DNA of 64,000 bases from the human T2T-CHM13v2.0 reference genome, Homo sapiens (GCF_009914755.1 NC_060933.1); one strand, 5' to 3'. Positions 811-64,000 are shown, counted from the stretch's first letter. Notes: a model not told the origin generated them from the letters alone. Made by a program: numbers and translations.

Positions 811-825
811 GGAATCTTCCGGAAT
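811..825 (+). promoter_or_regulatory. Perfect heat-shock element nGAAnnTTCnnGAAn (GGAATCTTCCGGAAT), first of ~22 copies in the + domain
   Basis: gGAAt-cTTCc-gGAAt matches the canonical three-pentamer HSF site. Other starts: 2534, 2829, 4682, 7177, 8480, 14337, 14965, 17951, 26028, 26941, 29004, 33026, 35244, 35817, 36277, 40142, 40955, 41883 (GGAATATTCC), 42477, 44464 (GGAAACTTCC), 46820. The motif match is direct; binding is inferred. Confidence 0.6.
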
Positions 826-3800
826 GGAATGGAATGGAATGGAATGGAATGGAATGGAGTGGAATCGAATGGAATGAAATGCAATGGATTCAACTCGATT
901 GCAATGGAATGGAATAGAATGGAATGGAATGGAATGGAATGGAATTAATCCGAATAGAATGGAATGGAATGGAATGGAAAGGAATGGAACGGAATGGAAT
1001 GGAATGGAATGGTATGGAATGGAATGGAATGGTACGGAATAGAATGGAATGGAACGAATTGTAATGCAATGGAATTGAATGGAATGGAATGGAATGGAAT
1101 GGAATCAACGCGAGTGCAGGGGAATGTAATGGAACGGAATGCAATGGAATGGAATCATCCGGAATGGAATGGAATGGAATGGAATGGAATGGAATCAACC
1201 CGAGTGCAATGGAATGGAGTGGAATGGAATGGAATGGAATGGAACAACCCGAATGGAATGGAATGTAATGGAGAGTAAGGGAGTTGAATAGAATCAATCC
1301 GAATGTAATGGAATGGAATGCAACGGAATGGAATGGAATGGAATGGAATGGAATGCAATGGAATGGAATCAACCCGAGTACAACGGAATGGAATGGAATG
1401 GAATGGAATGGAATGGAATGGAATGAAATGCAATGATACGGAATAGAATGGAATGGAACGAAATGGAATGGAATGGAATGGAATGGACTGGAATGGAATG
1501 GAATGGAATCGATCCAAGTGGAATATGAGGGAATGTATTCGAGTGGAATGGAAAGGAATGGAATCAACCAGAGTGGAATGGAAGGGAATGGAATGGAATG
1601 GAAACTAATAGAATGGAATCAACCCGAGTGGAATGGAATGGAAAGCACTGGAATGGAATGGAATGGAACGGAATCAACTCGATTGTAATGGAATGGAATG
1701 GAATGGAATGGAATGGAATGGAATGGAGTGGAAAGGAATGGAATCAACACGAGTGCAGGGGAATGGAATGGAATGGAATGAAATGGAATGGAATCATCCG
1801 GAATGGAATGGAATGGAATGGAATGCAAAGCAATGGAATCAACTCGATTGCAATGGAAAGGAATGGAATGGAAAGGAATACATTGGAATCAACCCGACTG
1901 GAATGGAATGGAAAAGACTGGAATGGAGTGGAATGGAATGGAATGGAATGGAATGGAATCAACTCGATTGGAATGGAATGGAATGGAATGGAATGGAAAA
2001 GAATTAACCCGAATAGAATGGAATGGAATGGAATGGAACGGAACGGAATGGAATGGAATAGAATGGAATGGAATGGAATGGAATGGAATAAACCCGACTG
2101 CAGGGGAATGGAATGGAATGGAATGCAATGGAATGGATTCAACTTGAATGGAATGGAAAGAATGGAATCAACACGAGTGGAATGGCATGGATTGGAATGG
2201 AAAGGAATGGAATCAACCCGAGTAAAGGGGAATGGAATGGAATGGAATGCAATGGAATGGAATCATCCGTAATGGAATGGAAAGGAATGGAATGGAATGG
2301 AATGGAATGGAATGGAATGGAATGGAATGGAATCAACTCGATTGCAATCGAATGGAAAGGAATGGAATTAACCCGAATGGAATGGAATGGAATGGAATGG
2401 AACGGAACAGAACGGAATGGAATGGATTGGAATGGAATGGAATGGAATGGAACGGAAAGGAATGGAATGGAATGGAATGGAATGGAATCAACGCGAGTGC
2501 AGGGGAATGGAATGGAATGGAATGCAATGGAATGGAATCTTCCGGAATGGAATGGAATGGAATGGAATGGAATGGAATGGAATGGAATCAACTCGATTGC
2601 AATCGAATGGAATGGAATGGAATTAACCCGAATAGAATGGAATGGAATGGAATGGATCGGAACGGAATGGAATGGAATGGAATGGAATGGAATGGAACGG
2701 AACGGAATGGAATTGAATGGAATGGAATGGAATGGAACGGAACGGAACGGAACGGAATGGAATGGAATGGAATGGAATGGAATCAACGCGAGTGCAGGGG
2801 AATGGAATGGAATGGAATGCAATGGAATGGAATCTTCCGGAATGGAATGGAATGGAATGGAATGAAATGCAATGGATTCAACTCGATTGCAATGGATTGG
2901 AATAGAATGGAATGGAATGGAATGGAATGGAATGGAATGGAATTAACCCGAATAGAATGGAATGGAATGGAATGGAACGGAATGGAACGGAATGGAATGG
3001 AATGGAATGGAATGGAATGGTATGGAATGGAATGGAATGCTACGGAATAGAATGGAATGGAACGAATTGTAATGGAATGGAATGGAATGGAATGGAATGA
3101 AATGGAATGGAATCAACGCGAGTGCAGGGGAATGTAATGGAACGGAATGCAATGGAATGGAATCATCCGGGATGGAATGGAATGGAATGGAATGGAATCA
3201 ACCCGAGTGCAATGGAATGGAGTGGAATGGAATGGAATGGAATGGAACAACCCGAATGGAATGGAATGTAATGGAGAGTAATGGAGTTGAATAGAATCAA
3301 TCCGAATGTAATGGAATGGAATGCAACCGAATGGAATGGAATGCAACCGAATGGAATGGAATGGAATGGAATGGAATGCAATGGAATGGAATCAACCCGA
3401 GTACAATGGAATGGAATGGAATGGAATGGAATGGAATGGAATGGAATGGAATGCCTTCAAACCGAATGGAATGGAAAAGAATGGAATCAACACGAGTGGA
3501 ATGGAATGGAATGGAATGGAATGGAATGGAATGATACGGAATAGAATGGAATGGAACGAAATGGAATGGAATGGAATGGAATGGAATGGAATGGAATGGA
3601 ATCGTTCCGAGTGGAATAGGAGGGAATGTATTCGAGTGGAATGGAAAGGAATGGAATCAACCAGAGTGGAATGGAAGGGAATGGAATGGAATGGAAATTA
3701 ATAGAATGGAATCAACCCGAGTGGAATGGAATGGAAAGGACTGGAATGGAATGGAATGGAATGGAATGGAATGGAATGGAATTAACCCGAATACAATGGA

Positions 3801-4728
3801 ATGGAATGGAATGGAACGGAATGGATTGGAATGGAATGGAATCAACCCGAGTGTAGGGGAATGGAATGGAATGGAATGCAATGGAATGGAATCATCCGGA
3901 ATGGAATGGAATGGAATGGAATGCAAAGCAATGGAATCAACTCGATTGCAATGGAATGGAACGGAAAGGAAAGGAATACATTGGAATCAACCCGAGTGGA
4001 ATGGAATGGAAAGGACTGGAATGGAGTGGAATGGAATGGAATGGAATGGAATGGAATCAACTCGATTGGAATGGAATGGAATGGAATGGAATGGAATGGA
4101 ATGGAATTAACCCGAATAGAATGGAATGGAATGGAATGGAATGGAATGGAACGGAACGGAACGGAATGGAATGGAATGGAATGGAATGGAATCGAATGGA
4201 ATGGAATCAACCCGACTGCAGGGGAATGGAATGGAATGGAATGCAATGGAATGGATTCAACTTGAATGGAATGGAAAGAATGGAATCAACACGAGTGGAA
4301 TGGCATGGATTGGAATGGAATGGAATGGAATCAACCCGAGTACAGGGGAATGCAATGGAATGGAATGCAATGGAATGGAATCATCCGTAATGCAATGGAA
4401 AGGAATGGAATGGAATGGAATGGAATAGAATGGAATGGAATGGAATGGAATCAACTCGATTGCAATCGAATGGAATGGAATGGAATTAACCCGAATAGAA
4501 CGGAATGGAATGGAATGGAACGGAACGCAACGGAATGGAATGGAATGGAATGGAATGGAATGGAATGGAATGGAACGGAAAGGAATGGAATGGAATGGAA
4601 TGGAATGGAATGGAATGGAATGGAATGGAATGGAATCAACGCGAGTGCAGGGGAATGGAATGGAATGGAATGCAATGGAATGGAATCTTCCGGAATGGAA
4701 TGGAATGGAATGGAATGCAATGGAATGG

Positions 4729-4880
4729 AATCAACCCGAGTGCAATCGAATGGAATCGAATGGAATGGAATGCAATGGAATGGACTCAACTTGAATGGAA
4801 TGGAAAGAATGGAATCAACACGAGTGGAAGGGCATGCATTGGAATGCAATGGATTGGAATCAACCCGAGTACAGGGGAAT
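4729..4880 (+). repeat. ~150-bp SatIII module resembling the chr9 pHuR98-type unit (representative copy)
   Basis: AATCAACCCGAGTGCAATCGAATGGAATCG...CAACTTGAATGGAATGGAAAGAATGGAATCAACACGAGTGG...CAACCCGAGTACAGGGG. The leading 30-mer recurs exactly at 6730, 30319, 32849, 40518, 46353 (+) and 50954, 57831, 60363, 63039 (-). The pHuR98/9q12 link is from memory of the commonly used SatIII primer and is not verified. Confidence 0.6.
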
Positions 4881-7800
4881 GGAATGGAATGGAATGCAAT
4901 GGAATGGAATCATCCGTAATGGAATGGAAAGGAATGGAATGGAATGGAATGGAATGGAATCAATACGATTGCAATCGAATGGAATGGAATGGAATGGAAT
5001 GGAATGGAATGATATGGAATAGAATGGAATGGAACAAAATGGAATGGAATGGAATGGAATGGAAGGGAATGGAATGGAATGGAATGGAATGGAATCGTTC
5101 CGAGTGGAATAGGAGGGAATCTATTCGAGTGGAATGGAAAGGAATGGAATCAACCAGAGTGGAATGGAAGGGAAAGGAATGGAGTGGAAACTAATAGAAT
5201 GGAATCAACCCGAGAGGAATGGAATGGAAAGGGCTGGAATGGAAATGAATGGAATGGAATGGAATGCAATGGAATGGAATGGAATGGAATCAACGCGAGT
5301 GCAGGGGAATGGAATGGAACGGAATGCAATGGAATAGAATCATCCGGAATGGAATGGAATGGAATGGAATGGAATGGAATGGTATGGAATCAACCCGAGT
5401 GCAATGGAATGGAGTGGAATGGAATGGAATGGAATGGAACAACCCGAATGGAATGGAATGTAATGGAGAGTAAGGGAGTTGAAAAGAATCAATCCGAATG
5501 TAATGGAATGGAATGGAACGGAATGGAATGGAATGGAATGCAATGGAATGGAATCAACCCGAGTACAATGGAATGAAATGGAATGGAATGGAATGGAATG
5601 GAATGCAATGGAATGGAGTCTTCCGGAATGGAATGGAATGGAATGGAATGGAATGCAATGGATTCAACTCGATTGCAATGGAATGGAATAGAATGGAATG
5701 GAACGGAATGGAATGGAATTAAACCGAATAGAATGGAATGGAATGGAATTAAACCGAATAGAATGGAATGGAATGGAATGGAACGGAACGGAACGGAACG
5801 GAACGGAACGGAGTGGAATGGAATGGAATGGAATTGTATGGAATGGAATGGAATGGTACGGAATAGAATGGAATGGAAAGAATTGGAATGGAATGGAATC
5901 GAATGGAATGGAATGGAATGGAATGGAATCAACCCGAGTGCAGGGGAATGTAATGGAACGGAATGCAATGGAATGAAATCATCCGGAATGGAATGGAATG
6001 GAATGGAATGGAATGGAATGGAATGGAATGGAATCAACCCGAGTGCAATGGAATGGACTCGAATGGAATGGAATGGAATGGAACAACCCGAATGGAATGG
6101 AATGTAATGGACAGTAAGGGAGTTGAATAGAATCAATCCGAATGTAATGGAATGGAACGGAATGGAAAGGAATGGAATGGAATGGAAAGGAATGGAATGC
6201 AATGGAATGGAATCAACGCGAGTACAATGGAACGGAAAGTAATGTAATGTAATGTAATGGAATGGAATGGAATGGAATGGAATGGAATCAACCCGAGTGC
6301 AATGGAATGGAGAGGAATGGAACGGAATGGAATGGAAACTACCCGAATGGAATGGATTGTAATGGAGTGTAAGGGAATTGAATAAAATCAATCCGAATGG
6401 AATGGAATGGAATGGAACGGAATGTAATGGAATGGAATGGAATGGAATCAACCCGAGTGCAGGGGAATGGAATGGAATGGAATCCAATGGAATGGAATCA
6501 TCCGGAATGGAATGGAATGGAATGCAATGGAATGGAAAGAATGGAATCCACCCGAGCACAATGGAATGGAGTGAAATGGAATGGAATGGAATGGAAACAA
6601 CCAGAATGGATTGGAATATAATGGAGTGTAAGGGAATTGAATAGAATCAATCTGAATGTAAAGAAATGGAATGGAACGGAATGGAATGGAATGGAATGGA
6701 ATGGAATGGAATGGAATGCAATGGAATGGAATCAACCCGAGTGCAATCGAATGGAATCGAATGGAATGGAATGCAATGGAATGGATTCAACTTGAATGGA
6801 ATGGAAAGAATGGAATCAAAACGAGTGGAATGGCATGGATTGGAATGGAATGGAATGGAATCAACCCGAGTACAGGGGAATGGAATGGAATGGAATGCAA
6901 TGGAATGGAATCAGCCGTAATGGAAAGGAAAGGAATGGAATGGAATGGAATGGAATGGAATGGAATGGAATCAACTCAATAGCAATCGAATGGAATGGAA
7001 TGGAATTAACCCGAATAGAATGGAATGGAATAGAATGGAACGGAACGGAATGGAATGGAATGTAATGGAATGGAATGGAACGGAACGGAATGGAATGGAA
7101 TGGAATGGAATGGAATGGAATGGAATGGAATCAACGCGAGTGCAGGGGAATGGAATGGAATGGAATGCAATGGAATGGAATCTTCCGGAATGGAATGGAA
7201 TGGAATGGAATGGAATGAAATGCAATGGATTCAACTCGATTGCAATGGAATGGAATAGAATGGAATGGAATGGAATGGAATTAACCCGAATAGAATGCAA
7301 TGGAATGGAATGGAACGGAATGGAACGGAAAGGAATGGAATGGAATGGAATGGAATGGTATGGAATGGAATGGAATGGTACGGAATAGAATGGAATGGAA
7401 TGAATTGTAATGGAATGGAATTGAATGGAATGGAATGGAATGGAATGGAATCAACCCGAGTGCAGGGGAATGTAATGGAACGGAATGCAATGGAATGGAA
7501 TCATCCGGAATGGAATGGAATGGAATGGAATGGAATGGAATCAACCCAATTGCAATGGAATGGACTGGAATGGAATGGAATGGAATGGAACAACCCGAAT
7601 GGAATGGAATGTATTGGAGAGTAAGGGAGTTGAATAGAATCAATCCGAAAGTAATGGAATGGAATGCAACGGAATGGAATGGAATGGAATGGAATGGAAT
7701 GCAATGGAATGGAATCAACCCGAGTACAATGGAATGGAATGGAATGGAATGGAATGGAATGCCTACAAACCGAATGGAATGGAAAGGAATGGAATCAACA

Positions 7801-9030
7801 CGAGTGGAATGGAATGGAATGGAATGGAATGGAATGATACGGAATAGAATGGAATGGAACGAAATGGAATGGAATGGAATGGAATGGAATGGAATCGTTC
7901 CGAGTGGAATAGGAGGGAATGTATTCGAGTGGCATGGAAAGGAATGGAATCAACCAGAGTGGAATGGAAGGGAATGGAATGGAATGGAAACTAATAGAAT
8001 GGAATCAATCCGAGTGGAATGGAATGGAAAGGACTGGAATGGAAAGGAATGGAATGGAATGGAATGAAATGGAATGGAATGGAATGGAATCAACGCGAGT
8101 GAAGGGGAATGGAATGGAATCGAATGGAATGGAATGGAATGGAATGGAAGCAACCCGAGTGCAGGGGAATGTAATGGAATGGAATGCAATGGAATGGAAT
8201 CATCCGGAATGGAATGGAATGGAATGGAATGGAATCAACCCGAGTGCAATGGAATGGAGTGGAATGGAATGGAATGGAATGGAACAACCCGAATGGAATG
8301 GAATGTAATGGAGAGTAAGGGAGTTGAAAAGAATCAACCCGAATGTATTGGAATGGAATGGAACGGAATGGAATGGAATGGAATGGAATGGAATGGAATG
8401 GAATGCAATGTAATGGAATCAAACCGAGTACAATGGAATGGAATGGAATGGGATGGAATGGAATGGAATGCAATGGAATGGAATCTTCCGGAATGGAATA
8501 GAATGGAATGGAATGGAATGGAATGGAATGGAATGCAATGCATTCAACTCGATTGCAATGGAATGGAATAGAATGGAATGGAATGGAATGGAATGGAATG
8601 GAATTAAACCGAATAGAATGGAATGGAATGGAATGGAACGGAACGGAACGGAAAGGAAGGGAATGGAATGGAATAGAATGGAATGGAATGGAATAGAATG
8701 GAATCAACTCGATTCCAATGGAATGGAATGGAATAGAACGGAATGGAATTAACACGAATAGAATGGAATGGAATGGAATGGAACGGAATGGAATGGAATG
8801 GAATGGATTCAACTCTATTGCAATGGAATGAAATAGAATGGAATGGAATGGAATGGAATGGAATTAACCCGAGTAGAATGGAATGGAATGGAATGGAACG
8901 GAATGTAATGGAATAGAATGGAATTGAATCAACCTGAGTGCAGGGGAATGGAATGGAATGGAAAGCAATGGAATGGAATCATCAGGAATGGAATGGAATG
9001 GAATGGTATGGAATGGAATGGAATGGAATG

Positions 9031-9375
9031 GAATCAACTCGATTTCAATGGAATGGAATGGAATAGAATGGAATGGAATTAACACGAATAGAATGGATTG
9101 GAATGCAATGGAATGGATCGGAAAGGAATGGAATGGAATGGAATGGAATCAACTCGATTTCAATGGAATGGAATGGAATAGAATGGAATGGAATTAACAC
9201 GAATAGAATGGATTGGAATGCAATGGAATGGATCGGAAAGGAATGGAATGGAATGGAATGGAATCAACTCGATTTCAATGGAATGGAATGGAATAGAATG
9301 GAATGGAATTAACACGAATAGAATGGATTGGAATGGAATGGAATGGAACGGAAAGGAATGGAATGGAATGGAATG
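9031..9375 (+). repeat. Tandem triplication of a 115-bp sub-unit
   Basis: CAACTCGATTTCAATGG starts at 9035, 9150 and 9265, each followed by TTAACACGAATAGAATGGATTGG. The first two copies also share GCAATGGAATGGATCGGAAAGG. Confidence 0.9.
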
Positions 9376-9849
9376 GAATCAACCCAAGTGCAGGGGAATG
9401 GAATGGAATGGAATTCAGTGGAATGGAATCATCCGGAATGGAATGGAATGGAATGGAATGGAATGGAAAGGAATCAACCCGAGTGCAATGGAATGGAGAG
9501 GAATGGAATGGAATGGAATGGAATGGATTCAACTCGATTGCAATGGAATGGAATGGAATGGAATGGAATGGAATGGAATGGAATTAACCCGAATAGAATG
9601 GAATGGAATGGAATGGAAAGGAAGGTAATGGAATGGAATGGAATGGAATCAACTCGATTCCAATGGAATGGAATGCAATGGAATGGAATGGAATGGAATG
9701 GAATCAACCTGAGTGCAGGGGAATGGAATGGAATGGAATGCAATGGAATGGAATCATCAGGAATGGAATGGAATGGAATGGAATGGAATGGAATGGAATG
9801 GAATGGAATCAACTCGTTTTCAATGGAATGGAATGGAGTGGACTGGAAT

Positions 9850-11510
9850 GGAATGGAATGTAAACAACCGGAATGGAATGGAATGTAATGGAGTGTAAGG
9901 GAATTGAATGGAATCAATCCGAATGCAATGGAATGGAATGGAAAGGAATGGAATTGAATGGAATGGAATGGAATGGAATCAACCCGAGTGTAATGGAATG
10001 GAATCGAAAGGAATGGAAAGGAATGGAATGGATTCAACACCAATGTAATGGAAAGGAATGGAATCAACCCGAGTGGAATGGCATGGAATGGAATGGAAAG
10101 GAATGGAATGGAATGGTACAGAACGGAGTGGATTGGAACGAAATGGAATGGAATGGAATAGAATGGAATCAACTCGATTGCAATGGAATGGAATGGAATG
10201 GAATGGAATAGAATGGAATGGAATTAACCCGAATAGATTGGAATGGAATGGAATGGAATCAACCCGAGTACAGGGGAATGGAATGGAATGGAATGCAATA
10301 GAATGGAATCATCCGTAAAGGAATGGAAAGGAATGGAATGGAATGGAAAGGAATGGAATAGAATGGAATTGAATGGAATGGAATCAACTCGATTGCAATA
10401 GAATGGAATGGAATGGAATTAACCCGAATAGAATGGAATGGAATGGAATGGAACGGAACGGAATGGAATGGAATGGAATGGAACGGAACGGAATGGAATG
10501 GAAAAGAATGGAATGGAATGGAATGGACTGGAATGGAATCAACGCGAGTGCAGTGGAATGGAATGGAATCGAATGCAATGGAATGGTATGTTCCGGAATG
10601 GAATGGAATGGAATGCAATGGAATGGAATGGAATGCAATGGATTCAACTCGATTGCAATGGAATGGAATAGAATGGAATGGAATGGAATGGAATGGAATC
10701 AACCCGAATAGAATGGAATGGAATGGAATGGAACGGAACGGAATGTAACGGAACAGAATGGAATGGAATGCAATGGAATGGAATGGAATGGTATGGAATG
10801 GAATGGAATGGTACGGAATAGAATGGAATGGAATGAATTGGAATGGAATGGAATCGAGTGGAATGCAATGGAATCAACCCGAGTGCAGGGGAATGTATTG
10901 GAACGGAATGCAATGGAATGGAATCATCCGCAATGGAATGGAATGGAATGGAATGGAATGGAATGGAATGAAACCGAGTGCAATGGAATGGAGTGGAATG
11001 GAATGGAATGGAATGTAAACAACCCGAATGGAATGGAATATAATGGAGTGTAAGGGAATTGAATGGAATCAATCCGAATGCAATGGAATGGAATGGAAAG
11101 GAATGGAATTGAATGGAATGGAATGGAATGGAATCAACCCGAGTGCAATGGAATGGAATCGAAAGGAATGGAAAGGAATGGAATGGATTCAACACCAATG
11201 TAATGGAATGGAATGGAATCAACCCGAGTGGAATGGCATGGAATGGAATGGAAACGAATGGAATGGAATGGTACAGAACGGAATGGATTGGAACGAAATG
11301 GAATGGAATGGAATGGAATGGAATGGAATGGAATGGAATGGAATGGAATGGAATCAACTCGATTGCAATCGAATGGAATGGAATGGAATAGAATGGAATG
11401 GAATTAACCCGAATAGATTGGAAAGGAATGGAATGGAATCAACCCGAGTACAGGGGAATGGAATGGAATGGAATGCAATGGAATGGAATCATCCGTAAAG
11501 GAATGGAAAG
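9850..11510 (+). repeat. Direct duplication of a ~0.5-kb block (about 9850-10330 and 11005-11510), offset 1155-1180 bp
   Basis: Shared private markers TAAACAACC (9861/11016), CAACACCAATG (10035/11190), GTACAGAACG (10116/11271), CATCCGTAAAGG (10310/11490). Confidence 0.85.
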
Positions 11511-29500: not shown

Positions 29501-29880
29501 ATCAATCCGAATGTAATGGAATGGAATGGAATGGAATGGAAAGGAATGGAATGGAATGGAATGCAATGGAATGGAATCAACCCGAGTACAATGGAATGGA
29601 ATGGAATGGAATGGAATGGAATGGAATGGAATGGAATCAACCTGAGTGCAATGGAATGGAGTGGAATGGAATGGAATGGAATGGAACAACCCGAATGGAA
29701 TGGAATGTAATGGAGAGTAAGGGAGTTGAATAGAATCCATCCGAAAGTAAAGGAATGGAATGGAACGGAATGGAATGGAATGGAATGGAATGGAATGGAA
29801 TGCAATGGAATGGAATCAACCCGAGTACAATGGAATAGAATGGAATGGAATGGAATGGAATGGAATGGAATGGAATGGAA

Positions 29881-47194: not shown

Positions 47195-47222
47195 AATGGA
47201 ATCAACCCGAGTTGATTCCATT
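47195..47222. other. Satellite strand-inversion breakpoint: palindrome AATGGAATCAAC-CCGA-GTTGATTCCATT with 5-bp microhomology CGAGT (47208-47212)
   Basis: GGAAT switches abruptly to ATTCC. The left arm ends in CAACCCGAGT and the right arm read on - ends in CAAAGCAATGGAATCAACTCG, so both share CGAGT. Arms 47195-47206 and 47211-47222 are perfect reverse complements around a 4-nt spacer. Confidence 0.95.
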
Positions 47223-50200: not shown

Positions 50201-50546
50201 CACTCGGGTTGATTCCATTCCATTCCATTCCATTCCGGATGATTCCATTCCATTGCATTTCGTTCCATTACATTCCCCTGCACTCGCGTTGATTCCATTC
50301 CATTCCATTCAATTCCATTCCATTACAATTCGTTCCATTCCATTCTATTCCGTACCATTCCATTCCATTCCATACCATTCCATTCCATTCCCTTCCATTC
50401 CATTCCGTTCCATTCCGTTCCATTGCATTCCATTCCATTCTATTCGGGTTAATTCCATTCCATTCCATTCCATTCCATTCTATTCCATGCCATTGCAATC
50501 GAGTTGAATCCATTGCATTTCATTCCATTCCATTCCATTCCATTCC

Positions 50547-50561
50547 ATTCCGGAAGATTCC
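50547..50561 (-). promoter_or_regulatory. Perfect heat-shock element (ATTCCGGAAGATTCC), first of ~12 copies in the inverted domain
   Basis: Reverse complement of the element above. Other starts: 51360, 53223, 55884, 56784, 57099, 57414, 58252, 60140, 60789 (GGAACATTCC variant), 63430, 63860. Confidence 0.6.
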
Positions 50562-53500
50562 ATTCCATTGCATTCCATTCCATTCCATTCCCCTGCACTC
50601 GCGTTGATTCCATTCCATTCCATTCCATTCCATTCCGTTCCGTTCAGTTCCGTTCCATTCCATTCGATTCCATTCCGTTCCGTTCCATTCCATTCCATTC
50701 CATTCCATTCTATTTGGGTTAATTCCATTCCATTCCATTCGATTGCAATCGAGTTGATTCCATTCCGTTCCATTCCATTCCTTTCCATTCCATTACGGAT
50801 GATTCCATTCCATTGCATTCCATTCCATTCCATTCCCCTGTACTCGGGTTGATTCCATTCCATTCCATTCCAATCCATGCCATTCCACTCGTGTTGATTC
50901 CATTCTTTCCATTCCATTCAAGTTGAATCCATTCCATTGCATTCCATTCCATTCGATTCCATTCGATTGCACTCGGGTTGATTCCATTCCATTGCATTCC
51001 ATTCCATTCCATTTCATTCCATTCCATTCCATTCCGTTCCATTCCATTCCATTACATTCGGATTGATTCTATTCAATTCCCTTACACTCCATTACATTCC
51101 ATTCCATTCGGGTAGTTTCCCTTCCATTCCATTCCATTCTTCTCCATTCCATTGCACTCGGGTTGATTCCATTCCATTGCATTCCATTCCATTCCATTCA
51201 ATTCCATTCCGTTCCATTCCATTCCATTACATTCGGATTGATTCTATTCAACTCCCGTACTCTCCATTACATTCGATTCCATTCGGGTTGTTCCATTCCA
51301 TTCCATTCCATTCCACTCCATTCCATTGCACTCGGGTTGATTCCATTCCATTCCATTCCATTCCGGAAGATTCCATTCCATTGCATTCCATTACATTCCA
51401 TTCCCCTGCACTCGCGTTGATTCCATTCCATTCCATTCCATTCCATTCCATTCCATTCCGTTCCGTTCCATTCCATTCCATTCCATTCCATTCCATTCCG
51501 TTCCGTTCCATTCCGTTCCATTCCATTCCATTCCATTCTATTCGGGTTAATTCCATTCCATTCCATTCCATTGAAATCGAGTTGATTCCTTTCCATTCTA
51601 TTCCATTCCATTCCATTCCATTCCATTCCTTTCCATTCCATTACGGATGATTCCATTCCATTGCATTCCATTCCATTCCATTCCCCTGTACTCGGGTTGA
51701 TTCCATTCCATTCCATTGCAATCCATGCTATTCCACTCGTGTTGATTCCATTCTTTCCATTCCATTCAAGTTGAATCCATTCCATTGCATTCCATTCCAT
51801 TCCATTCCCCTTCAGTCGGGGTGATTCCATTCCATTCCATTCCATTCCATTCCATTCCATTCCTTTCCTTTCCATTTAATTCCATTCCATTCTATTCGGG
51901 TTAATTCCATGCCATTGCATTCCATTCCATTCCATTCCATTCCATTCCATTCCAATCGAGTTGATTCCATTCCATTCCATTCCATTCCATTCCACTCCAT
52001 TCCAGTCCTTTCCATTCCATTCCACTCGGGTTGATTCCAATGTATTCCTTTCCATTCCATTCCATTCCATTGCAATCGAGTTGATTCCATTGCTTTGCAT
52101 TCCATTCCATTCCATTCCGGATGATGCCATTCCATTGCATTCCATTCCATTCCATTCCCCTGCACTCGGGTTGATTCCATTCCATTCCACTCCATTCCGT
52201 TCCATTCCATTCCATTCCGTTGTATTCGGGTTAATTCCATTCCATTCCACTCAATTCCATTCCATTCCAATCCATTACAATCGAGTTAATTCCATTCCAT
52301 TCCATTCCATTCCATTCCATTCCATTCCAGTCATTTCCATTCCATTCCACTCGGGTTGATTCCATTCTATTAGTTTCCATTCCATTCCATTCCCTTCCAT
52401 TCCACTCTGGTTGATTCCATTCCTTTCCATTCCACTCGAATACGTTCCCTCCTATTCCACTCTGAACGAATCCATTCTATTCCATTCCATTCCATTCCAT
52501 TTCGTTCCATTCCTTTCTATTCCGTACCATTCCATTCCATTCCATTCCTTTCCATTCCATTCCATTCCACTCGTGTTGATTCCATTCCTTTCCATTCCAT
52601 TCGGTTTGAAGGCATTCCAATCCATTCCATTCCATTCCATTCCATTCCATTCCATTCCATTCCATTCCATTGTACTCGGGTTGATTCCATTCCATTGCAT
52701 TCCATTCCATTCCATTCCATTCCATTCCGTTGCATTCCATTCCATTACATTCGGATTGATTCTATTCAACTCCCTTACTCTCCATTCCATTCCATTCCAT
52801 TCGGGTTGTTCCATTCCATTCCATTCCATTCCACTCCATTCCATTGCACTCGGGTTGATTCCATTCCATTCCATTCCATTCCATTCCGGATGATTCCATT
52901 CCATTGCATTCCGTTCCATTACATTCCCCTGCACTCGCGTTGATTCCATTCCATTCCATTCCATTCCATTCAATTCCATTCCATTACAATTCGTTCCATT
53001 CCATTCTATTCCGTGCTATTCCATTCCATTCCATACCATTCCATTCCATTCCATTCCATTCCATTCCATTCCATTCCATTCCATTCCGTTCCATTCCGTT
53101 CCATTCCATTCCATTCCATTCTATTCGGGTTAATTCCATTCCATTCCATTCCATTCCATTCTATTCCATTCCATTGCAATCGAGTTGAATCCATTGCATT
53201 TCATTCCATTCCATTCCATTCCATTCCGGAAGATTCCATTCCATTGCATTCCATTCCATTCCATTCCCCTACACTCGCGTTGATTCCATTCCATTCCATT
53301 CCATTCCATTCTGTTCCGTTCCGTTCCGTTCCATTCCATTCCATTCCATTCCATTCAATTCCGTTCCGTTCCATTCCATTCCATTCCATTCTATTTGGGT
53401 TAATTCCATTCCATTCCATTCGATTGCAATCGAGTTGATTCCATTCCATTCCATTCCATTCCATTCCTTTCCATTCCATTACGGATGATTCCATTCCATT

Positions 53501-56500
53501 GCATTCCATTCCATTCCATTCCCCTGTACTCGGGTTGATTCCATTCCATTCCATTCCAATCCATGCCATTCCACTCGTGTTGATTCCATTCTTTCCATTC
53601 CATTCAAGTTGAATCCATTCCATTGCATTGCATTCCATTCGATTCCATTCAATTGCACTCTTGTTGATTCCATTCCATTCCATTCCATTCCATTCCATTC
53701 CATTCCATTCCGTTCCATTCCATTCCATTACATTCAGATTGATTCTATTCAATTCCCTTACACTCCATTACATTCCATTCCATTCGGGTAGTTTCCATTC
53801 CATTCCATTCCATTCCTCTCCATTCCATTGCACTCGGGTTGATTCCATTCCATTGCATTCCATTCCATTCCATTCAATTCCATTCCGTTCCATTCCATTC
53901 CATTACATTCGGAATGATTCTATTCAACTCCCTTACTCTCCATTACATTCCATTCCATTCGGGTTGTTCCATTCCATTCCATTCCATTCCACTCCATTCC
54001 ATTGCACTCGGGTTGATTCCATTCCATTCCATTCCATTCCATTTCGGAAGATTCCATTCCATTGCATTCCATTACATTCCATTCCCCTGCACTCGCGTTG
54101 ATTCCATTCCATTCCATTCCATTCCATTCCGTTCCTTTCCGTTCCATTCCATTCCATTCCATTCCATTCCATTCCGTTCCGTTCTTTTCCGTTCCATTCC
54201 ATTCTATTCCATTCTATTCGGGTTAATTCCATTCTATTCCATTTGATTGCAATCGAGTTGATTCCCTTCCATTCTATTCCATTCCATTCCATTCCATTCC
54301 ATTCCTTTCCATTCCATTACGGATGATTCCATTCCATTGCATTCCATTCCATTCCATTCCCCTGTACTCGGGTTCATTCCATTCCATTCCATTCCAATCC
54401 ATGCCATTCCACTCGTGTTGATTCCATTCTTTCCATTCCATTCAAGTTGAATCCATTCCATTGCATTCCATTCCATTCCATTCCCCTGCAGTAGGGTTGA
54501 TTCCATTCCATTCCATTCCATTCCATTCCATTCCATTCCATTCCATTGCATTTCATTCCTTTCCGTTCCATTTAATTCCATTCCATTCTATTCGGGTTAA
54601 TTCCATTCCATTCCATTCCATTCCATTCCATTCCATGCCATTCCAATCGAGTTGATTCCATTCCATTCCATTCCATTCCATTCCAGTCCTTTCCATTCCA
54701 TTCCACTCGGGTTGATTCCAATGAATTCCTTTCCATTCCATTCCATTCCATTGCAATCGAGTTGATTCCATTGCTTTGCATTCCATTCCATTCCATTCCA
54801 TTCCGGATGATTCCATTCCATTGCATTTCATTCCATTCCATTCCATTCCCCTGCACTCGGGTTGATTCCATTCCATTCCACTCCATTCCGTTCCAATCCA
54901 TTCCCTTCCATTGTATTTGGGTTAATTCCATTCCATTCCATTCCATTCCATTCCATTCCATTCCATTCCATTGCATTACAATCGAGTTGATTGCATTCCA
55001 TTCCATTGCATTCCATTCCATTCCATTCCATTCCAGTCCTTTCCATTCCATTCCACTCGGGTTGATTCCATTCTATTAGTTTCCATTCCATTCCATTCCC
55101 TTCCATTCCACTCTGGTTGATTCCATTCCTTTCCAATCCACTCGAATACATTCCCTCCTATTCCACTCGGAACGATTCCATTCCATTCCATTCCATTCCA
55201 TTCCATTCTATTCCATTCCATTTCTTTCCATTCCATTCTATTCCATACCATTCCATTCCATTCGATTGCATTCCATTACATTCCTTCCCATTCCATTCTT
55301 GTTGATTCCATTCCTTTCCATTCCATTCGGTTTGAAGCCATTCCATTCCATTCCATTCCATTCCATTCCATTCCATTCCATTCCATTCCATTGTACTCGG
55401 GTTGATTCCATTCAATTGCATTCCATTCCATTCCATTCCATTCCGTTCCATTCCATTCCATTACATTCGGATTGATTCTATTCAACTCCCTTACTCTCCA
55501 TTACATTCCATTCCATTCTGGTTGTTCCATTCCATTCCATTCCATTCCACTACATTCCATTGCACTCGGGTTGATTCCATTCCATTCCATTCCATTCCAT
55601 TCCATTCCATTCCGCATGATTCCATTCCATTACCTTCTGTTCCATTACATTTCCCTGCACTCGCTTTGATTCCATTCCATTCCATTCCATTCCCCACCAT
55701 TCCATTCCATTCCATTCCATTCCATTCCATTCCATTCCATTCCATTCCGTTCCGTTCCGTTCCATTCCGTTCCATTCCATTCCATTCTATTCGGGTTAAT
55801 TCCATTCCATTCCATTCCATTCCATTCTATTCCATTCCATAGCAATCGAGTTGAATCCATTGCATTCCATTCCATTGAATTCCATTCCGGAAGATTCCAT
55901 TCCATTGCATTCCATTACATTCCATTCCCCTGCACTCGTTTTGATTCCATTCCATTCCATTCCATTCGGATTCATTCTATTCAATTCCCTTACACTCCAT
56001 TACATTCCATTCGATTCGTGTAGTTTCCATTCCATTCCATTCCATTCCTCTCCATTCCATTGCACTCGGGTTGATTCCATTCCATTCCATTCCATTCCGG
56101 GTGATTCCATTCCATTGAATTCCATTCCATTCCATTCCCCTGCACTTGGGTTGATTCCATTCCATTCCATTCCATTCCTTTCTGTTCCATTCAATTCCAT
56201 TCCATTCCATTCTATTCGTGTTAATTCCATTCCATTGTATTCCATTCCATTCCATTGAAATCGAGTTGATTCCATTCCATTTCATTCCATTCCATTCCAT
56301 TCCATTCCGTTCCATTCAGGATGATTCCTTTCCATTGTATTCCATTCCTTTCCATTCCCCTGCACTCGGGTTGATTCCATTCCATTCCATTACATTACAT
56401 TCCATTCCATTCCGATCCATTTCATTCTATTCGGGTTAATTCCATTCCATTCCATTCCACTCCATTCCAGTCCTTTCCATTCCATTCCACTCGGGATGAT

Positions 56501-57180
56501 TCCATTCTATTCCTTTCAATTCCATTCCATTCCATTGCAATCCAGTTGATTCCATTCGAGTTGAATCCATTCCATTCCATTCCATTGCACACGGGTTCAT
56601 TCCATTCCATTCCATTCCATTCCATTCCATTCCATTCCATTTCATTCCATTCCATTCTATTCCGTACCATTCCATTCCATCCCATTCCATTCCGTTCCAT
56701 TCCATACAATTACACTCGGGTTGATTCCATTCCTTTCCATTCAATTCTTGTTGAATCCATTCCATTCCATTCCATTCCATTCCTTTCCGGAAGATTCCAT
56801 TCCATTGCATTCCATTACATTCCATTCCCCTGCACTGGCGTTGATTCCATTCCATTCCATTCAATTCCATTCCATTACAATTCGTTCCATTCCATTCTAT
56901 TCCGTACCATTCCATTCCATTCCATACCATTCCATTCCATTCCATTCCATTCCATTCCGTTCCATTCCGTTCCATTCCATTCCATTCCATTCTATTCGGG
57001 TTAATCCCATTCCATTCCATTCCATAGCATTCTATTCCATTCCATTGCAATCGAGTTGAATCCATTGCATTTCATTCCATTCCATTCCATTGCATTCCAT
57101 TCCGGAAGATTCCATTCCATTGCATTCCATTACATTCCAATCCCCTGCACTCGCGTTGATTCCATTCCATTCCATTCCAT

Positions 57181-57305
57181 TCCGTTCCGTTCCGTTCCGT
57201 TCCGTTCCGTTCCATTCCATTCCATTCCGTTCCGTTCCGTTCCGTTCCGTTCCGTTCCATTCCATTCCATTCCATTCCATTCCGTTCCGTTCCGTTCCGT
57301 TCCGT
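57181..57305 (-). repeat. (GGAAC)n / (CCGTT)n CpG-rich variant cluster
   Basis: Three runs of 6, 6 and 5 TCCGT units give 17 CpGs in 125 bp. Confidence 0.85.
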
Positions 57306-60300
57306 TCCATTCCATTCCATTCCATTCTATTCGGGTTAATTCCATTCCATTCCACTCGATTGCAATCGAGTTGATTCCATTCCATTCCATTCCATTCCAT
57401 TCCATTCCATTTCATTCCGGAAGATTCCATTCCATTGCATTCCATTCCTTTCCATTCCCCTGCACTCACGTTGTTTCCATTCCATTCCATTCCATTCCGT
57501 TCCGTTCCGTTCCATTCCATTCCATTCCCTTCCATTCCGTTCCGTTCCGTTCCATTCCATTCCATTCCATTCTATTCGGGTTAATTCCATTCCATTCCAT
57601 TCGATTGCAATCGTGTTGATTCCATTCCATTCCATTCCATTCCATTCCATTCCATTCCTTTCCATTCCATTACGGATGATTCCATTCCATTGCATTCCAT
57701 TCCATTCCATTCCCCTGTACTCGGGTTGATTCTATTCCATTGCATTCCAATCCATGGCCTTCCAATTGTGTTGATTCCATTCTTTCCATTCCATTCAAGT
57801 TGAATCCATTCCATTGCATTCCATTCCATTCGATTCCATTCGATTGCACTCGGGTTGATTCCATTCCATTGCATTCCATTCCATTCCATTCCATTCCGTT
57901 CCATTCCATTCCATTACATTCGGATTGATTCTATTCAATTCCCTTACTCTCCATTACATTCCATTCCATTCGGGTAGTTTCCATTCCATTCTATTCCATT
58001 CCTCTCCATTCCATTGCACTCGGGTTGATTCCATTCCATTGCATTCCATTCCATTCCATTCCATTCCATTCCGTTCCATTCCATTCCATTACATTCGGAT
58101 TGATTCTATTCAACTCCCTTACTCTCTATTACATTCCATTCCATTCGGGCTGTTCCATTCCATTCCATTCCATTCCACTCCAATCCATTGCATTCGGGTT
58201 TATTCCATTCCATTCCATTCCATTCCATTCCATTCCATTCCATTCCATTCCATTCCGGAAGATTCCATTCCATTGCATTCCATTCCATTCCATTCCCCTG
58301 CACTCGCGTTGATTCCATTCGATTCCATTCCATTCCATTCCATTCCATTCCATTCCTTTCCGTTCCATTCCATTCCATTCCATTCCATTCCGTTCCGTTC
58401 CGTTCCACTCCATTCCATTCCATTCTATTCGGGTTAATTCCATTCCATTCCATTCGATTGCAATCGAGTTGATTCCATTCCATTCCATTCCATTCCATTC
58501 CATTCCTTTCCATTCCATTACGGATGATTCCATTCCATTGCATTCCATTCCATTCCATTCCCCTGTACTCGGGTTCATTCCATTCCATTCCATTCCAATC
58601 CATGCCATTCCACTCGTGTTGATTCCATTCTTTCCATTCCATTCAAGTTGAATCCATTCCATTGCATTCCATTCCATACCATTCCCCTGCAGTCGGGTTG
58701 ATTCCATTCCATTCCATTCCATTCCATTCCATTCCATTCCATTCCGTTCCGTTCCGTTCCGTTCCATTCCATTCCATTCCATTCTATTCGGGTTAATTCC
58801 ATTCCATTCCATTGCATTCCATTCCATTCCAATCGAGTTGATTCCATTCCATTCCATTCCATTCCATTCCATTCCATTCCACTCCATTCCAGTCCTTTCC
58901 ATTGCATTCCACTAGGGTTGATTCCAATGTATTCCTTTCCATTCCATTCCATTCCATTGCAATCGAGTTGATTCCATTGCTTTGCATTCCATTCCATTCC
59001 ATTCCATTTCAATCGAGTTGATTCCATTGCTTTGCATTCCATTCCATTCCATTCCATTCCGGATGATTCCATTCCATTGCATTCCATTCCATTCCATTCC
59101 CCTGCACTCGGGTTGATTCCATTCCATTAAACTCCATTACGTTCCATTCCATTCCATTCCGTTGTATTCGGGTTAATTCCATTCCATTCCACTCCATTCC
59201 ATTCCATTCCATTCCAATCGAGTTGATTCCATTCCATTCCATTCCATTCCATTCCATTCCATTCCAGTCCTTTCCATTCCATTCCACTCGGGTTGATTCC
59301 ATTCTATTAGTTTCCATTCCATTCCATTCCCTTCCATTCCACTCTGGTTGATTCCATTCCTTTCCATTCCACTCGAATACATTCCCTCCTATTCCACTCG
59401 GAACGATTCCATTCCATTCCATTCCATTCCATTCCATTCCATTCCATTCCATTTCGTTCCATTCCATTCTATTCCGTATCATTCCATTCCATTCCATTCC
59501 ATTCCATTCCATTCCATTCCATTCCACTCGTGTTGATTCCATTCCTTTCCATTCCATTCGGTTTGAAGACATTCCATTCCATTCCATTCCATTCCATTCC
59601 ATTGTACACGGGTTGATTGCATTCCATTGCATTCCATTCCATTCAATTCCGTTGCATTCCATTCCATTACATTCGGATTGATTCTGTTCAACTCCCTTAC
59701 TCTCCATTACATTCCATTCCATTCGGGTTGTTCCATTCCATTCCATTCCATTCCACTCCATTCCATTGCACTCGGGTTGATTCCATTCTATTCCATTCCA
59801 TTCCATTCCATTCCATTCCATTCCGGATGATTCCATTCCATTGCATTCCGTTCCATTACATTCCCCTGCACTCGCGTTGATTCCATTCCATTCCATTCAA
59901 TTCCATTCCATTACAATTCGTTACATTCCATTCTATTCCGTACCATTCCATTCCATTCCATACCATTCCATTCCATTCCATTCCATTCCATTCCGTTCCA
60001 TTCCGTTCCATTGCATTCCATTCCATTGTATTCGGGTTAATTCCATTCCATTCCATTCCATTCCATTCTATTCCATTCCATTGCAATCGAGTTGAGTCCA
60101 TTGCATTCCATTCCATTCCATTCCATTCCATTCCATTCCATTCCGGAAGATTCCATTCCATTGCATTCCATTCCATTCCATTCCCCTGCACTCGCGTTGA
60201 TTCCATTCCATTCCATTCCGTTCCGTTCCATTCCATTCCATTCCATTCCATTCCATTCCGTTCCTTTCCATTCCATTCCATTCCATTCTATTCGGGTTAA

Positions 60301-63300
60301 TTCTATTCCATTCCATTCGATTGCAATCGAGTTGATTCCATTCCATTCCATTCCATTCCATTCGATTCCATTCGATTGCACTCGGGTTGATTCCTTTCCA
60401 TTGCATTCCATTCCATTCCATTCCATTCCATTCCATTCCATTCCGTTCCATTCCTTTCCATTATATTCGGATTGATTCTATTCAATTCCCTTACACTCCA
60501 TTACATTCCATTCCATTCGGGTAGTTTCCATTCCATTCCATTCCATTCCTCTCCATTCCATTGCACTCGGGTTGATTCCATTCCATTGCATTCCATTCCA
60601 TTCCATTCAATTACATTCCGTTCCATTCCATTCCATTACATTCGGATTGATTCTATTCAACTCCCTTACTCTCCATTACATTCCATTCCATTCGGGTTGT
60701 TCCATTCCATTCCATTCTATTCCACTCCATTCCATTGCACTCGGGTTTATTCCATTCCATTCCATTCCATTCCATTCCATTCCATTCCATTCCGGAACAT
60801 TCCATTCCATTGTATTCCATTCCATTCCATTCCCCTGCACTCGCGTTCATTCCATTCCATTCCATTCCATTCCATTCCATTCCATTCCTTTCCGTTCCAT
60901 TCCATTCCATTCCATTCCATTCCATTCCGTTCCGTTCCGTTCCGTTCCGTTCCGTTGCATTCCATTCCATTCCATTCTATTCGGGTTAATTCCATTCCAT
61001 TCCATTCGATTGCAATCGAGTTGATTCCATTCCATTCCATTCCATTCCATTCCATTCCATTCCATTCCATTCCTTTCCATTCCATTACGGATGATTCCAT
61101 TCCATTGCATTCCATTCCATTCCATTCCCCTGTACTCGGGTTGATTCCATTCCATTCCATTCCAATCCATGCCATTCCACTCGTGTTGATTCCATTCTTT
61201 CCATTCCATTCAAGTTGAATCCATTCCATTGCATTCCATTCCATTCCATTCCCCTGCAGTCGGGTTGATTCCATTCCATTCCATTCCATTCCATTCCATT
61301 CCATTCCATTCCGTTCCTTTCCGTTCCATTCCATTCCATTCCACTCTATTCGGGTTATTTCCATTCCATTCCATTCCATTCCATTCCATTCCAATCGAGT
61401 TGATTCCATTCCATTCCATTCCACTCCATTCCAGTCCTTTCCATTCCATTCCACTCGGGTTGATTCCAATGTATTCCTTTCCATTCCATTCCATTCCATT
61501 GCAATCGAGTTGATTCCATTGCTTTGCATTCCATTCCATTCCATTCCATTCCGGATGATTCCATTCCATTGCATTCCATTCCATTCCATTCCCCTGCACT
61601 CGGGTTGATTCCATTCCATTCCACTCCATTCCGTTCCATTCCATTCAACTCCATTGTATTCAGGTTAATTCCATTCCATTCCATTCCATTCCATTCCATT
61701 CCATTCCATTCCATTACAATCGAGTTGATTCCATTCCATTCCATTCCATTCCATTCCATTCCAGTCCTTTTCATTCCATTCCACTCGGGTTGATTCCATT
61801 CTATTAGTTTCCATTCCATTCCATTCCCTTCCATTCCACTCTGGTTGATTCCATTCCTTTCCATTCCACTCGAATACATTCCTTCCTATTCCACTCGGAA
61901 CGATTCCATTCCATTCCATTCCATTCCATTCCATTCCATTCCATTTCGTTCCATTCCATTCTATTCCGTATCATTCCATTCCATTCCATTCCATTCCATT
62001 CCATTCCATTCCATTCCACTCATTTTGATTCCACTCCTTTCCATTCCATTCGGTTTGAAGGCATTCCATTCCATTCCATTCCATTCCATTCCATTCCATT
62101 CCATTCCATTCCATTGTACTCGTGTTGATTCCATTCCATTGCATTCCATTCCATTCCATTCCATTCCATTCCGTTGCATTCCATTCCATTACATTCAGAT
62201 TGATTCTATTCAACTCCCTTACGCTCCATTACATTCCATTCCATTCGGGTTGTTCCATTCCATTCCATTCCATTCCACTCCATTCCATTGCACTCGGGTT
62301 GTTTCCATTCCATTCCATTCCATTCCATTCCATTCCATTCCGGATGATTCCATTCCATTGCATTCCGTTCCATTACATTCCCCTGCACTCGCGTTGATTC
62401 CATTCCATTCCATTCAATTCCATTCCATTACAATTCGTTCCATTCCATTCTATTCCGTATCATTTCATTCCATTCCATACCATTCCATTCCATTCCATTC
62501 CATTCCATTCCATTCCGTTCCATTCCGTTCCATTGCATTCCATTCCATTCTATTCGGGTTAATTCCATTCCATTCCATTCTATTCCATTCCATTGCAATC
62601 GAGTTGAATCCATTGCATTTCATTCCATTCCATTCCATTCCATTCCATTCCATTCCGGAGGATTCCATTCCATTGCATTCCATTCCATTCCATTCCCCTG
62701 CACTCGCGTTGAATCCATTCCATTCCATTCCATTCCATTCCATTCCGTTCCGTTCCATTCCATTCTATTCGGGTTAATTCCATTCCATTCCATTCGATTG
62801 CAATAGAGTTGATTCCATTCCATTCCATTCCATTCCATTCCATTCCATTCCATTCCATTCCATTCCTTTCCATTCCATTACGGATGATTCCATTCCATTG
62901 CATTCCATTCCATTCCATTCCCCTGTACTCGGGTTGATTCCATTCCATTCCATTCCAATCCATGCCATTCCACTCGTGTTGATTCCATTCTTTCCATTCC
63001 ATTCAAGTTGAATCCATTCCATTGCATTCAATTCCATTCGATTCCATTCGATTGCACTCGGGTTGATTCCATTCCATTCCATTCCATTCCATTCCATTCC
63101 ATTCCGTTCCATTCCATTCCATTACATTCGGATTGATTCTATTCAATTCCCTTACACTCCATTACATTCCATTCCATTCGGGTAGTTTCCACTCCATTCC
63201 ATTCCATTCCTCTCCATTCCATTGCACTCGGGTTGATTCCATTCCATTGCATTCCATTCCATTCCATTCAATTCCATTCCGTTCCATTCCATTCCATTAC

Positions 63301-64000
63301 ATTCGGATTGATTCTATTCAACTCCCTTACTCTCCATTACATTCGATTCCATTCGGGTTGTTCCATTCCATTCCATTCCATTCTACTCCATTCCATTGCA
63401 CTCGGGTTGATTCCTTTCCATTCCATTCCATTCCGGAAGATTCCATTCCATTACATTCCATTACATTCCATTCCCCTGCACTCGCGTTGATTCCATTCCA
63501 TTCCATTCCATTCCATTCCATTCCATTCCTTTCCGTTCCATTCCATTCCATTCCATTCCATTCCATTCCATTCCATTCCGTTCCGTTCTGTTCCATTCCA
63601 TTCCATTCCATTCTATTCGGGTTAATTGCATTCCATTCCATTCGATTGCAATCGAGTTGATTCCAATCCATTCCATTCCATACCATTCCATTCCATTCCA
63701 TTCCATTCCATTCCATTCCATTCCGTTCCATTCCGTTCCATTCCATTCCATTCCATTCTATTCGGGTTAATTCCATTCCATTCCATTGCATTCCATTCTA
63801 TTCCATTCCATTGCAATCGAGTTGAATCCATTGCATTTCATTCCATTCCATTCCATTCCATTCCGGAAGATTCCATTCCATTGCATTCCATTCCATTCCA
63901 TTCCCTTGCACTCGCGTTGATTCCATTCCGTTCCATTCCATTCCATTCCATTCCATTCCGTCCCTTTCCGTTCCATTCCATTCCATTCTATTCGGGTTAA

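What the first reader, a model, noticed from the sequence alone, without database searches (positions are those of the whole stretch)
811..63874. About 34 perfect heat-shock elements made by one inverted pentamer at a fixed module position, each with a central CpG
Seen: plain GGAAT gives only head-to-tail nGAAn units, but GGAAT-CTTCC-GGAAT is an exact nGAAnnTTCnnGAAn. I count 22 copies on + and 12 on -, about one per 1.9 kb. Most follow CAACGCGAGTGCAGGGG...GCAATGG. The more abundant sister word GGAAT-CATCC-GGAAT differs by one base, breaks the TTC, and usually follows CAACCCGAGTGCAGGGG. Three variants change only 'n' positions (41883, 44464, 60789). Each element contains TCCGGA (CpG; HpaII/BspEI site). 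Density is uneven, with none seen between about 18.0 and 26.0 kb. Established: HSF1 binds 9q12 SatIII and drives its transcription under stress. Inference: this 15-mer is the high-affinity nucleation site, flanked by step-type GAA repeats, and the CTTCC:CATCC ratio could tune array responsiveness.
Basis: partly seen in the sequence, partly recalled or inferred. Interest (0 to 1): 0.7.

Follow-up and report, generated by a model that had tools for sequence, protein, structure and literature searches.

The report
Heat-shock element of chromosome 9 satellite
One 15-letter word, present 12,700 times in the genome and likely almost all in the giant chromosome 9 satellite, matches the textbook docking site of the heat-stress factor HSF1 exactly and likely explains why heat-stressed cells gather HSF1 on this chromosome first.

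Summary
The word is not an inversion. It is a one-base variant (CATCC to CTTCC) of a fixed module slot, carried by one amplified lineage, with no sign of selection on the core. The genome holds 12,700 exact copies, one sixth of all 76,189 perfect HSEs. None lie on chr1-8, and the sampled chr9 density accounts for essentially all of them. Yq12, the other known primary HSF1 target, has about 14,700 perfect HSEs from different words. The 8-Mb chr15 array showed none. The word therefore likely supplies the high-affinity sites that make 9q12 a primary HSF1 target (0.65). It is not required for stress bodies (chr15-only hybrids form them), and the one-mismatch CATCC sister is not excluded. The CpG is predicted to be tolerated when methylated, not to act as a switch. 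The 18-26 kb gap is not significant alone. HSF1 motifs in HSat3 are already in print; I did not find the exact word or this census.

The parts
811..46834 (+). 22 perfect HSE 15-mers on the + strand, starting at 811, 2534, 2829, 4682, 7177, 8480, 14337, 14965, 17951, 26028, 26941, 29004, 33026, 35244, 35817, 36277, 40142, 40955, 41883 (variant), 42477, 44464 (variant), 46820
50547..63874 (-). 12 perfect HSE 15-mers on the - strand, lowest coordinates 50547, 51360, 53223, 55884, 56784 (variant), 57099, 57414, 58252, 60140, 60789 (variant), 63430, 63860
766..825 (+). Example module: CAACGCGAGTGCAGG head at 766, GGAAT run with one GCAAT, slot CTTCC at 816-820 exactly 50 nt after the head start, HSE at 811-825
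77..62351 (.). 45 exact CATCC sister words (34 +, 11 -): the same slot with A, a one-mismatch HSE (GAA-ATC-GAA)
41883..41897 (+). Variant GGAATATTCCGGAAT; its first ten bases also occur in the HSP70 HSE probe printed by Jolly 2002
17966..26027 (+). Block without the HSE lineage: no CTTCCGG, CAACGCGAG or CATCCGT in 18,001-26,000; 14 CATCCGG
1..47202 (+). HSat3 array arm with GGAAT on + (period 5, 74% matches)
47215..63993 (-). HSat3 array arm with GGAAT on - (inverted block); the HSEs flip with it
47195..47222 (.). Inversion junction: 12-bp perfect inverted arms around a 4-nt loop, inside a CAAC-CCGAG module head
4729..4887 (+). Example of the 159-bp stretch bounded by published HSat3 qPCR primer sites (likely the pHuR98-type segment); holds no perfect HSE, the nearest starts 46 bp upstream

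Best explanation
A single one-base variant of a repeat module (CATCC to CTTCC), amplified to 12,700 copies that likely lie almost all in the chromosome 9 satellite 3 array, spells a perfect three-unit heat-shock element and is likely the main high-affinity site that makes 9q12 a primary HSF1 target. Shown here: the word, its fixed slot, its single lineage, its genome count, its absence from chr1-8, and a purine 5' of all three GAA units. Inferred: one HSF1 trimer binds each word (one site per about 2 kb over about 28 Mb, some 30 times the genome background); the local density then favours condensation and Pol II recruitment (established for 9q12 as a whole, not for this word); plain GGAAT runs and CATCC sisters add weaker binding. 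Predicted: methylation of the central CpG is tolerated, because 5mC would place a methyl where T stands in the favoured TTC-TA-GAA or TTC-TG-GAA step, which would let HSF1 dock on methylated heterochromatin. The variant likely spread by ordinary satellite amplification rather than by selection on the element.
For: Exact match to the definition of three alternating nGAAn units. Pyrimidine-purine step at TTC-GAA and a purine before each GAA, the preferences described from HSF1 structures, in 34 of 34 window sites and 95 of 98 sites in 20 other chr9 stretches. 12,700 exact copies against 3 for the reversed control, 16.7% of 76,189 perfect HSEs. None listed on chr1-8 on either strand. 91 copies in 200 kb of chr9 extrapolate to 12,558 (95% 9,978-15,138). 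29 of 29 copies tagged by a rare flanking base are on chr9. The other known primary target, Yq12, has about 14,700 perfect HSEs from different words. The large chr15 array showed 0 in 8 kb and at most edge hits in three class searches, although TEAD, which reads plain GGAATG, binds both chr9 and chr15. Published HSF1 ChIP reads follow HSF1 motif density in HSat3. The classic 158-bp probe, described as non-canonical, needed more HSF1 than an HSE probe, and the matching 159-bp stretch lacks the word in 9 of 9 full-length cases. Heat induction needs no bulk demethylation.
Against: No binding data at word level could be examined. HSF1 binds pHuR98 in vitro although its nGAAn layout is non-canonical, and HSF1 was crystallised on head-to-tail SatIII repeats (stated; original paper not held). 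chr15-only hybrids form heat-induced bodies in about 90% of cells. The CATCC sister (20,563 copies; one listed on chr1-8) shares the chr9 bias, and one-mismatch sites rank Y 2.5, chr9 1.1-1.4, chr15 0.5 per kb, so the chromosome comparison cannot separate the two words. No four-unit element exists in 264 kb. HT1080 and H460 cells use Y and not chr9, although only 1 of 5 sampled Y sites has all-purine flanks. No selection signal: core GAA mismatches 10 of 768 against 6 of 768 in control GAA, p=0.45. The published ChIP figure speaks of 'sub-regions', while I find the word in 19 of 20 chr9 stretches; I could not see the figure.
Confidence: 0.65

Rival explanations
1. The whole slot family is the target: perfect CTTCC and the more numerous one-mismatch CATCC words both hold HSF1, so the module, not the perfect word, makes chr9 special.
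For: CATCC words are 1.6 times as numerous (20,563 against 12,700) and similarly biased to chr9. Substitutions other than at G are tolerated in active HSEs. The HSP70 probe that HSF1 binds well has an imperfect third unit (sequence). One-mismatch density also ranks Y and chr9 above chr15.
Against: The mismatch falls in the central unit, which takes part in both dimer contacts (inference). HSF1 is reported to prefer canonical HSEs.
Confidence: 0.17
2. HSF1 gathers on 9q12 through avidity for megabases of head-to-tail GGAAT (or an unusual DNA or chromatin structure), and the perfect word is a passenger of satellite amplification.
For: pHuR98 binds HSF1, with slower-migrating forms shifted preferentially. 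A crystal of HSF1 on head-to-tail SatIII exists. chr15-only hybrids form bodies. chr9 and Y also hold the largest arrays, so size confounds the comparison. No selection signal; the variant is one of 8 common variants in the module.
Against: HSF1 ChIP signal in HSat3 is uneven and follows motif density, unlike TEAD4. chr15 has an 8-Mb array yet is not reported as a primary target in human cells.
Confidence: 0.14
3. The biologically relevant reader is an ETS-family factor: the word holds CCGGAAG and the sister CCGGATG, which would be bound when the CpG is unmethylated.
For: 34 CCGGAAG and 61 CCGGATG cores in the window. That these are ETS cores and that ETS binding is methyl-sensitive is recalled, not tested.
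Against: The fuller CCGGAAGT occurs once. Only one ETS-family motif was strongly enriched in HSat3 in a motif screen. It would not explain HSF1 targeting.
Confidence: 0.04

Closest known systems
Canonical (perfect three-unit) heat-shock element bound by an HSF1 trimer (Feng 2021, PMC8379338)
   Same: Three alternating nGAAn units; pyrimidine-purine step between TTC and GAA; purine before each GAA.
   Different: One invariant word in thousands of tandem-repeat modules inside heterochromatin, not at a gene promoter; never extended to four units; the step is CG rather than TA, CA or TG.
Perfect HSEs in Yq12 satellite III (Penin 2021, PMC7889540)
   Same: Perfect HSEs scattered in a GGAAT array that is a primary HSF1 target; four per 3,564-bp unit reported, about three seen here.
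   Different: Different words, so likely separate origins; Y has several words per unit, most with a less favoured base before a GAA (1 of 5 all-purine against 34 of 34); the best Y word has no CpG.
HSF1 motif blocks in HSat3 (Franklin et al., bioRxiv 10.1101/2024.10.22.616524) and the unpublished note of putative HSEs in 9q12 (Vourc'h 2022, PMC9032817)
   Same: HSF1 motifs exist in HSat3 and ChIP reads follow them; putative HSEs at 9q12 mentioned. This is very probably the same phenomenon.
   Different: In the text I read neither gives the word, its module slot, its lineage or a count; the 2022 review says the number of sites is unknown. Figures and supplements were not visible and may hold this.
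pHuR98 / D9Z3, the 158-bp chr9 satellite III probe (Jolly 2002, PMC2173303)
   Same: Same array and module vocabulary; bound by HSF1 in vitro.
   Different: Described as non-canonical; the 159-bp stretch that likely corresponds to it holds no perfect HSE. I did not see the pHuR98 sequence, so the match is inferred from primer sites and length.

Membership tests
Canonical three-unit HSE | At least three contiguous alternating nGAAn units | tested here: met
   34 sites in the window; definition
Canonical three-unit HSE | Favoured flanks: pyrimidine-purine step at TTC-GAA, purine 5' of GAA | tested here: met
   34 of 34 in the window, 95 of 98 in 20 other chr9 stretches; preference
Canonical three-unit HSE | Bound by HSF1 at this word in cells or in vitro | not testable with these tools
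   Only array-level evidence from papers
Canonical three-unit HSE | Confers heat-inducible transcription from a nearby start | not testable with these tools
   Array-wide induction on chr9 is published; no start-site data seen
Extended HSE (four or more units) | Four alternating units | tested here: not met
   0 in the window and 0 in 200 kb of other chr9 stretches
Step-type HSE (flanks) | Same-strand nGAAn units 5 bp apart | tested here: inconclusive
   True of every GGAAT run, also on chr15, so not distinguishing; reported to give low activation
Human satellite 3, chr9 array (hsat3_9_3, B5) | GGAAT runs broken by CAAC(C/A)CGAGT terminators, at 9q12 | tested here: met
   formula; array name
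Human satellite 3, chr9 array (hsat3_9_3, B5) | Published subfamily-diagnostic k-mers | not tested
   The k-mer lists were not consulted; assignment rests on position
ETS binding site | CCGGAAGT-type consensus (recalled) | tested here: inconclusive
   7-base core 34 times, 8-base form once

The most novel reading that the evidence does not exclude
9q12 and Yq12 independently gained amplified perfect HSEs and together hold over a third of the genome's perfect elements, forming an HSF1 sink whose size differs between sexes and individuals with array length and CTTCC share; methylation of the CpG at the centre of the chr9 word, absent from the best Y word, decides whether the primary stress body forms on chr9 or on Y, as in HT1080 and H460 cells.
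Probability: 0.1. Interest if true: 0.85.

Novelty: new member of a known kind. Interest (0 to 1): 0.52.

Why it matters
Why HSF1 picks 9q12 among many GGAAT arrays has been open since 2002, when the tested probe looked non-canonical; a 2022 review calls the number of sites unknown. One chr9-restricted 15-mer with a built-in one-base control (CATCC) makes the question testable from existing ChIP reads without mapping, and gives a target for blocking stress-body formation on chr9 alone. About 28,000 of 76,189 perfect HSEs lying in two satellites would also make array size a possible modifier of the heat-shock response.

Tried and rejected
Origin by a true pentamer inversion: rejected; the slot has A 388, T 128, G 3, C 3 in 522 modules, and 124 of 128 T copies share one head type. 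Selection on the core: no signal (10 of 768 against 6 of 768, p=0.45); the T lineage is more homogeneous at control positions too (0.78% against 1.98%, p=0.034); 119 A-slot modules of the GTAAT sub-variant were left out of that comparison; power is low and copies are related. One of 225 single-base changes of the module makes a perfect HSE and 8 columns carry common variants, so a neutral hit has roughly 4% odds per module; this is after the fact and not evidence of selection. Special protection of the CpG: none (124 of 128 intact against 253 of 269 in sisters and 120 of 128 in the head). The 18-26 kb gap as a significant depletion: p=0.31. CpG as an off-switch: not favoured; methyl-SELEX data were not seen. 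Fold-back origin of the inversion: rejected, the 1.5 kb on either side align no better than controls (score 1053, controls 931-1628). Comparator sampling was thin: of 10 stretches of 4 kb, 5 fell in GGAAT satellite (2 Y, 2 chr15, 1 chr14) and 5 missed, so the chr9 word and its single-n variants are not directly excluded from arrays on chr10-22. A text search for 10-mers of the word gave 937 papers; none of the 40 listed concerned satellites by title.

Full report
Observation. The window is HSat3: GGAAT on + to 47,202 and on - from 47,215. GAAnnTTCnnGAA occurs 22 times on + and 12 on -; 30 are the exact GGAATCTTCCGGAAT and four differ at n positions (41883, 44464, 56784, 60789). All 34 contain TCCGGA, and 32 of 34 sit with the slot exactly 50 nt after a module head, 30 with the CAACG head. 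A position-wise substitution null gives 0.45 sites and a 2nd-order Markov null 0.8, but shuffling the existing pentamers gives 20.4: the signal is the abundance of one pentamer. The 8.1-kb gap has p=0.31 under uniform placement; the block also lacks the CAACG head (0 of 44) and is a different sub-variant.

Origin. In the window plus 20 stretches of 10 kb across chr9, 522 modules were collected. The slot base is A in 388, T in 128, G in 3, C in 3; 124 of 128 T copies have the CAACG head against 57 of 388 A copies (p=2e-68). The element is thus a point variant on one amplified lineage, one of 8 common variants in the module and the only one of 225 possible single changes that makes a perfect HSE. 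Core GAA positions are not better kept than neighbouring GAA (10 of 768 against 6 of 768, p=0.45), and the lineage is more homogeneous at control positions as well (119 modules of the GTAAT sub-variant left out of the comparison group). I read this as ordinary amplification; the test is weak.

Genome census. The exact word has 12,700 copies (6,460 + 6,240; reversed control 3), 16.7% of the 76,189 perfect GAAnnTTCnnGAA sites. Listings run in contig order; the first match on either strand is on chr9 at 49.76 and 49.16 Mb, so chr1-8 have none. The 20 chr9 stretches hold 91 copies (19 of 20 stretches have 2-9; the one at the array edge has 0), which over 27.6 Mb (size) gives 12,558 (9,978-15,138). 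Copies tagged by a rare flanking base are on chr9 in 29 of 29 cases; an n-variant is on chr9 in 28 of 33 and on chr5 in 5. Near-confinement to chr9 is therefore inferred, not listed in full. The CATCC sister has 20,563 copies, one listed on chr1-8.

Other arrays. Perfect HSEs preceded by GAATG number 24,393, with only 69 listed on chr1-8. Of 10 comparator stretches of 4 kb, 5 fell in GGAAT satellite: two on Y with 5 perfect HSEs from other words, two on chr15 and one on chr14 with none, not even two-unit sites. One Y word has 4,895 copies, spaced about 3.55 kb, one listed off Y. A class search gave 9,869 sites of which 74 are listed before Yq12, leaving about 9,795 on the last contig (that C24 is Y rests on its length and order, recalled). 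Y thus has about 14,700, which fits the forward-strand excess of 14,055. Two further classes gave 54 and 20 sites. Across these three classes chr15 p-arm hits were five single sites at 1.6, 5.3, 14.0 and 15.4 Mb, none between 5.4 and 13.9 Mb where both chr15 samples lie. By my arithmetic chr9 (about 13,500) and Y hold about 28,000 of 76,189 perfect HSEs (37%), and chr9 density (0.49-0.53 per kb) is some 30 times the rest of the genome. These are the two primary HSF1 targets named by Penin 2021. Not covered: the chr9 word and its single-n variants on chr10-22, and sites with other upstream bases.

Mechanism. HSF1 structures show a preference for a pyrimidine-purine step between TTC and GAA and for a purine before GAA; C is less favoured and T was modelled as intolerable. 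The chr9 word meets this in 34 of 34 and 95 of 98 sites; Y in 1 of 5. No four-unit element was found in 264 kb, so each site would hold one trimer (inference). The CpG cytosine lies two bases before GAA, where T is allowed by the step preference, so 5mC is predicted to be tolerated (inference, untested); bulk pericentric methylation does not change on heat shock in HeLa. The stretch between two published HSat3 primer sites is 159 bp in 9 of 11 forward-primer hits (reverse site matched by its first 10 bases only; the full reverse primer has no exact match) and never holds the word, the nearest being 46-1,314 bp away. If this is the 158-bp pHuR98, it explains why Jolly 2002 saw a non-canonical layout and needed over 12.5 ng HSF1 against over 3 ng for an HSE.

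Against. pHuR98 does bind HSF1, a structure on head-to-tail SatIII exists (mentioned), and chr15-only hybrids form heat-induced bodies in about 90% of cells while a hybrid with chr13 and 21 does not: the perfect word sets priority at most and is not required. One-mismatch sites rank Y 2.5, chr9 1.1-1.4, chr15 0.5, chr14 0 per kb, so CATCC is not excluded, and array size is a confounder. HT1080 and H460 prefer Y, which site quality does not explain.

What is known, and what I saw. Franklin et al., bioRxiv 10.1101/2024.10.22.616524 (section 5 and passages; figures and supplements not seen): HSF1 motifs in HSat3 sub-regions, with ChIP enrichment. Penin 2021, PMC7889540 (Discussion and passages; supplements unreadable): four perfect HSEs in the Y unit. 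Vourc'h 2022, PMC9032817 (passages): putative 9q12 HSEs, unpublished. Jolly 2002, PMC2173303 (section 8 and passages). Feng 2021, PMC8379338 (section 11 and passages). Valgardsdottir 2008, PMC2241877 (section 14 and passages; supplement not searchable). Passages only: PMC2770647, PMC11622622, PMC10505914, PMC4552642, PMC13340490, PMC13634412, PMC13705371. Neudegger 2016, Yin 2017 and Denegri 2002 were not read. The exact word and census were not found in searches; the library lacks most subscription papers, and the unseen figures and supplements may hold them. The names DYZ1, D15Z1 and the ETS consensus are recalled.

Verdict. A real, canonical HSE in a known HSF1 target: a new member of a known kind. 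The new part is its identity, single origin and census, which make the old question of chr9 specificity testable from public reads. Confidence 0.65 that it is the main high-affinity site; interest 0.52.

Noticed in passing
window 47195-47222: The strand switch of the array falls inside a module head and forms 12-bp perfect inverted arms around a 4-nt loop; the flanks are not mirror copies. G-rich transcripts from the two arms would converge here.
   Followed up: partly
G000:C9: Rare tagged words recur with the same spacing about 10.6 Mb apart (for example 57.28-57.67 Mb and 67.90-68.29 Mb) and about 8.8 Mb apart (54.07-54.48 and 62.83-63.31 Mb), pointing to multi-megabase duplications inside the array.
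   Followed up: no
L001 (chr9 49.10 Mb) and listing: The proximal edge of the array nearly lacks the HSE lineage: 0 in 10 kb at 49.10 Mb, one copy at 49.16 Mb, dense only from 49.29 Mb.
   Followed up: partly
G000:C5:49.72-49.91 Mb: Six perfect HSEs with CTTCC but other downstream bases in a chr5 stretch: a small related or independent set.
   Followed up: no
G000 chr13, 14, 15, 21, 22 short arms: Single perfect HSEs with the same word recur once on each acrocentric short arm, consistent with shared blocks.
   Followed up: no
window 21467-28767 and 48995-56266; 2971-14850 and 50616-62534: Long inverted homology between blocks of the two arms; a direct repeat distance of about 2.8 kb dominates the + arm.
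   Followed up: no
window and L001-L020: A second one-mismatch HSE, GGAAACTACCCGAAT, occurs 13 times in the window and 47 times in 200 kb.
   Followed up: no
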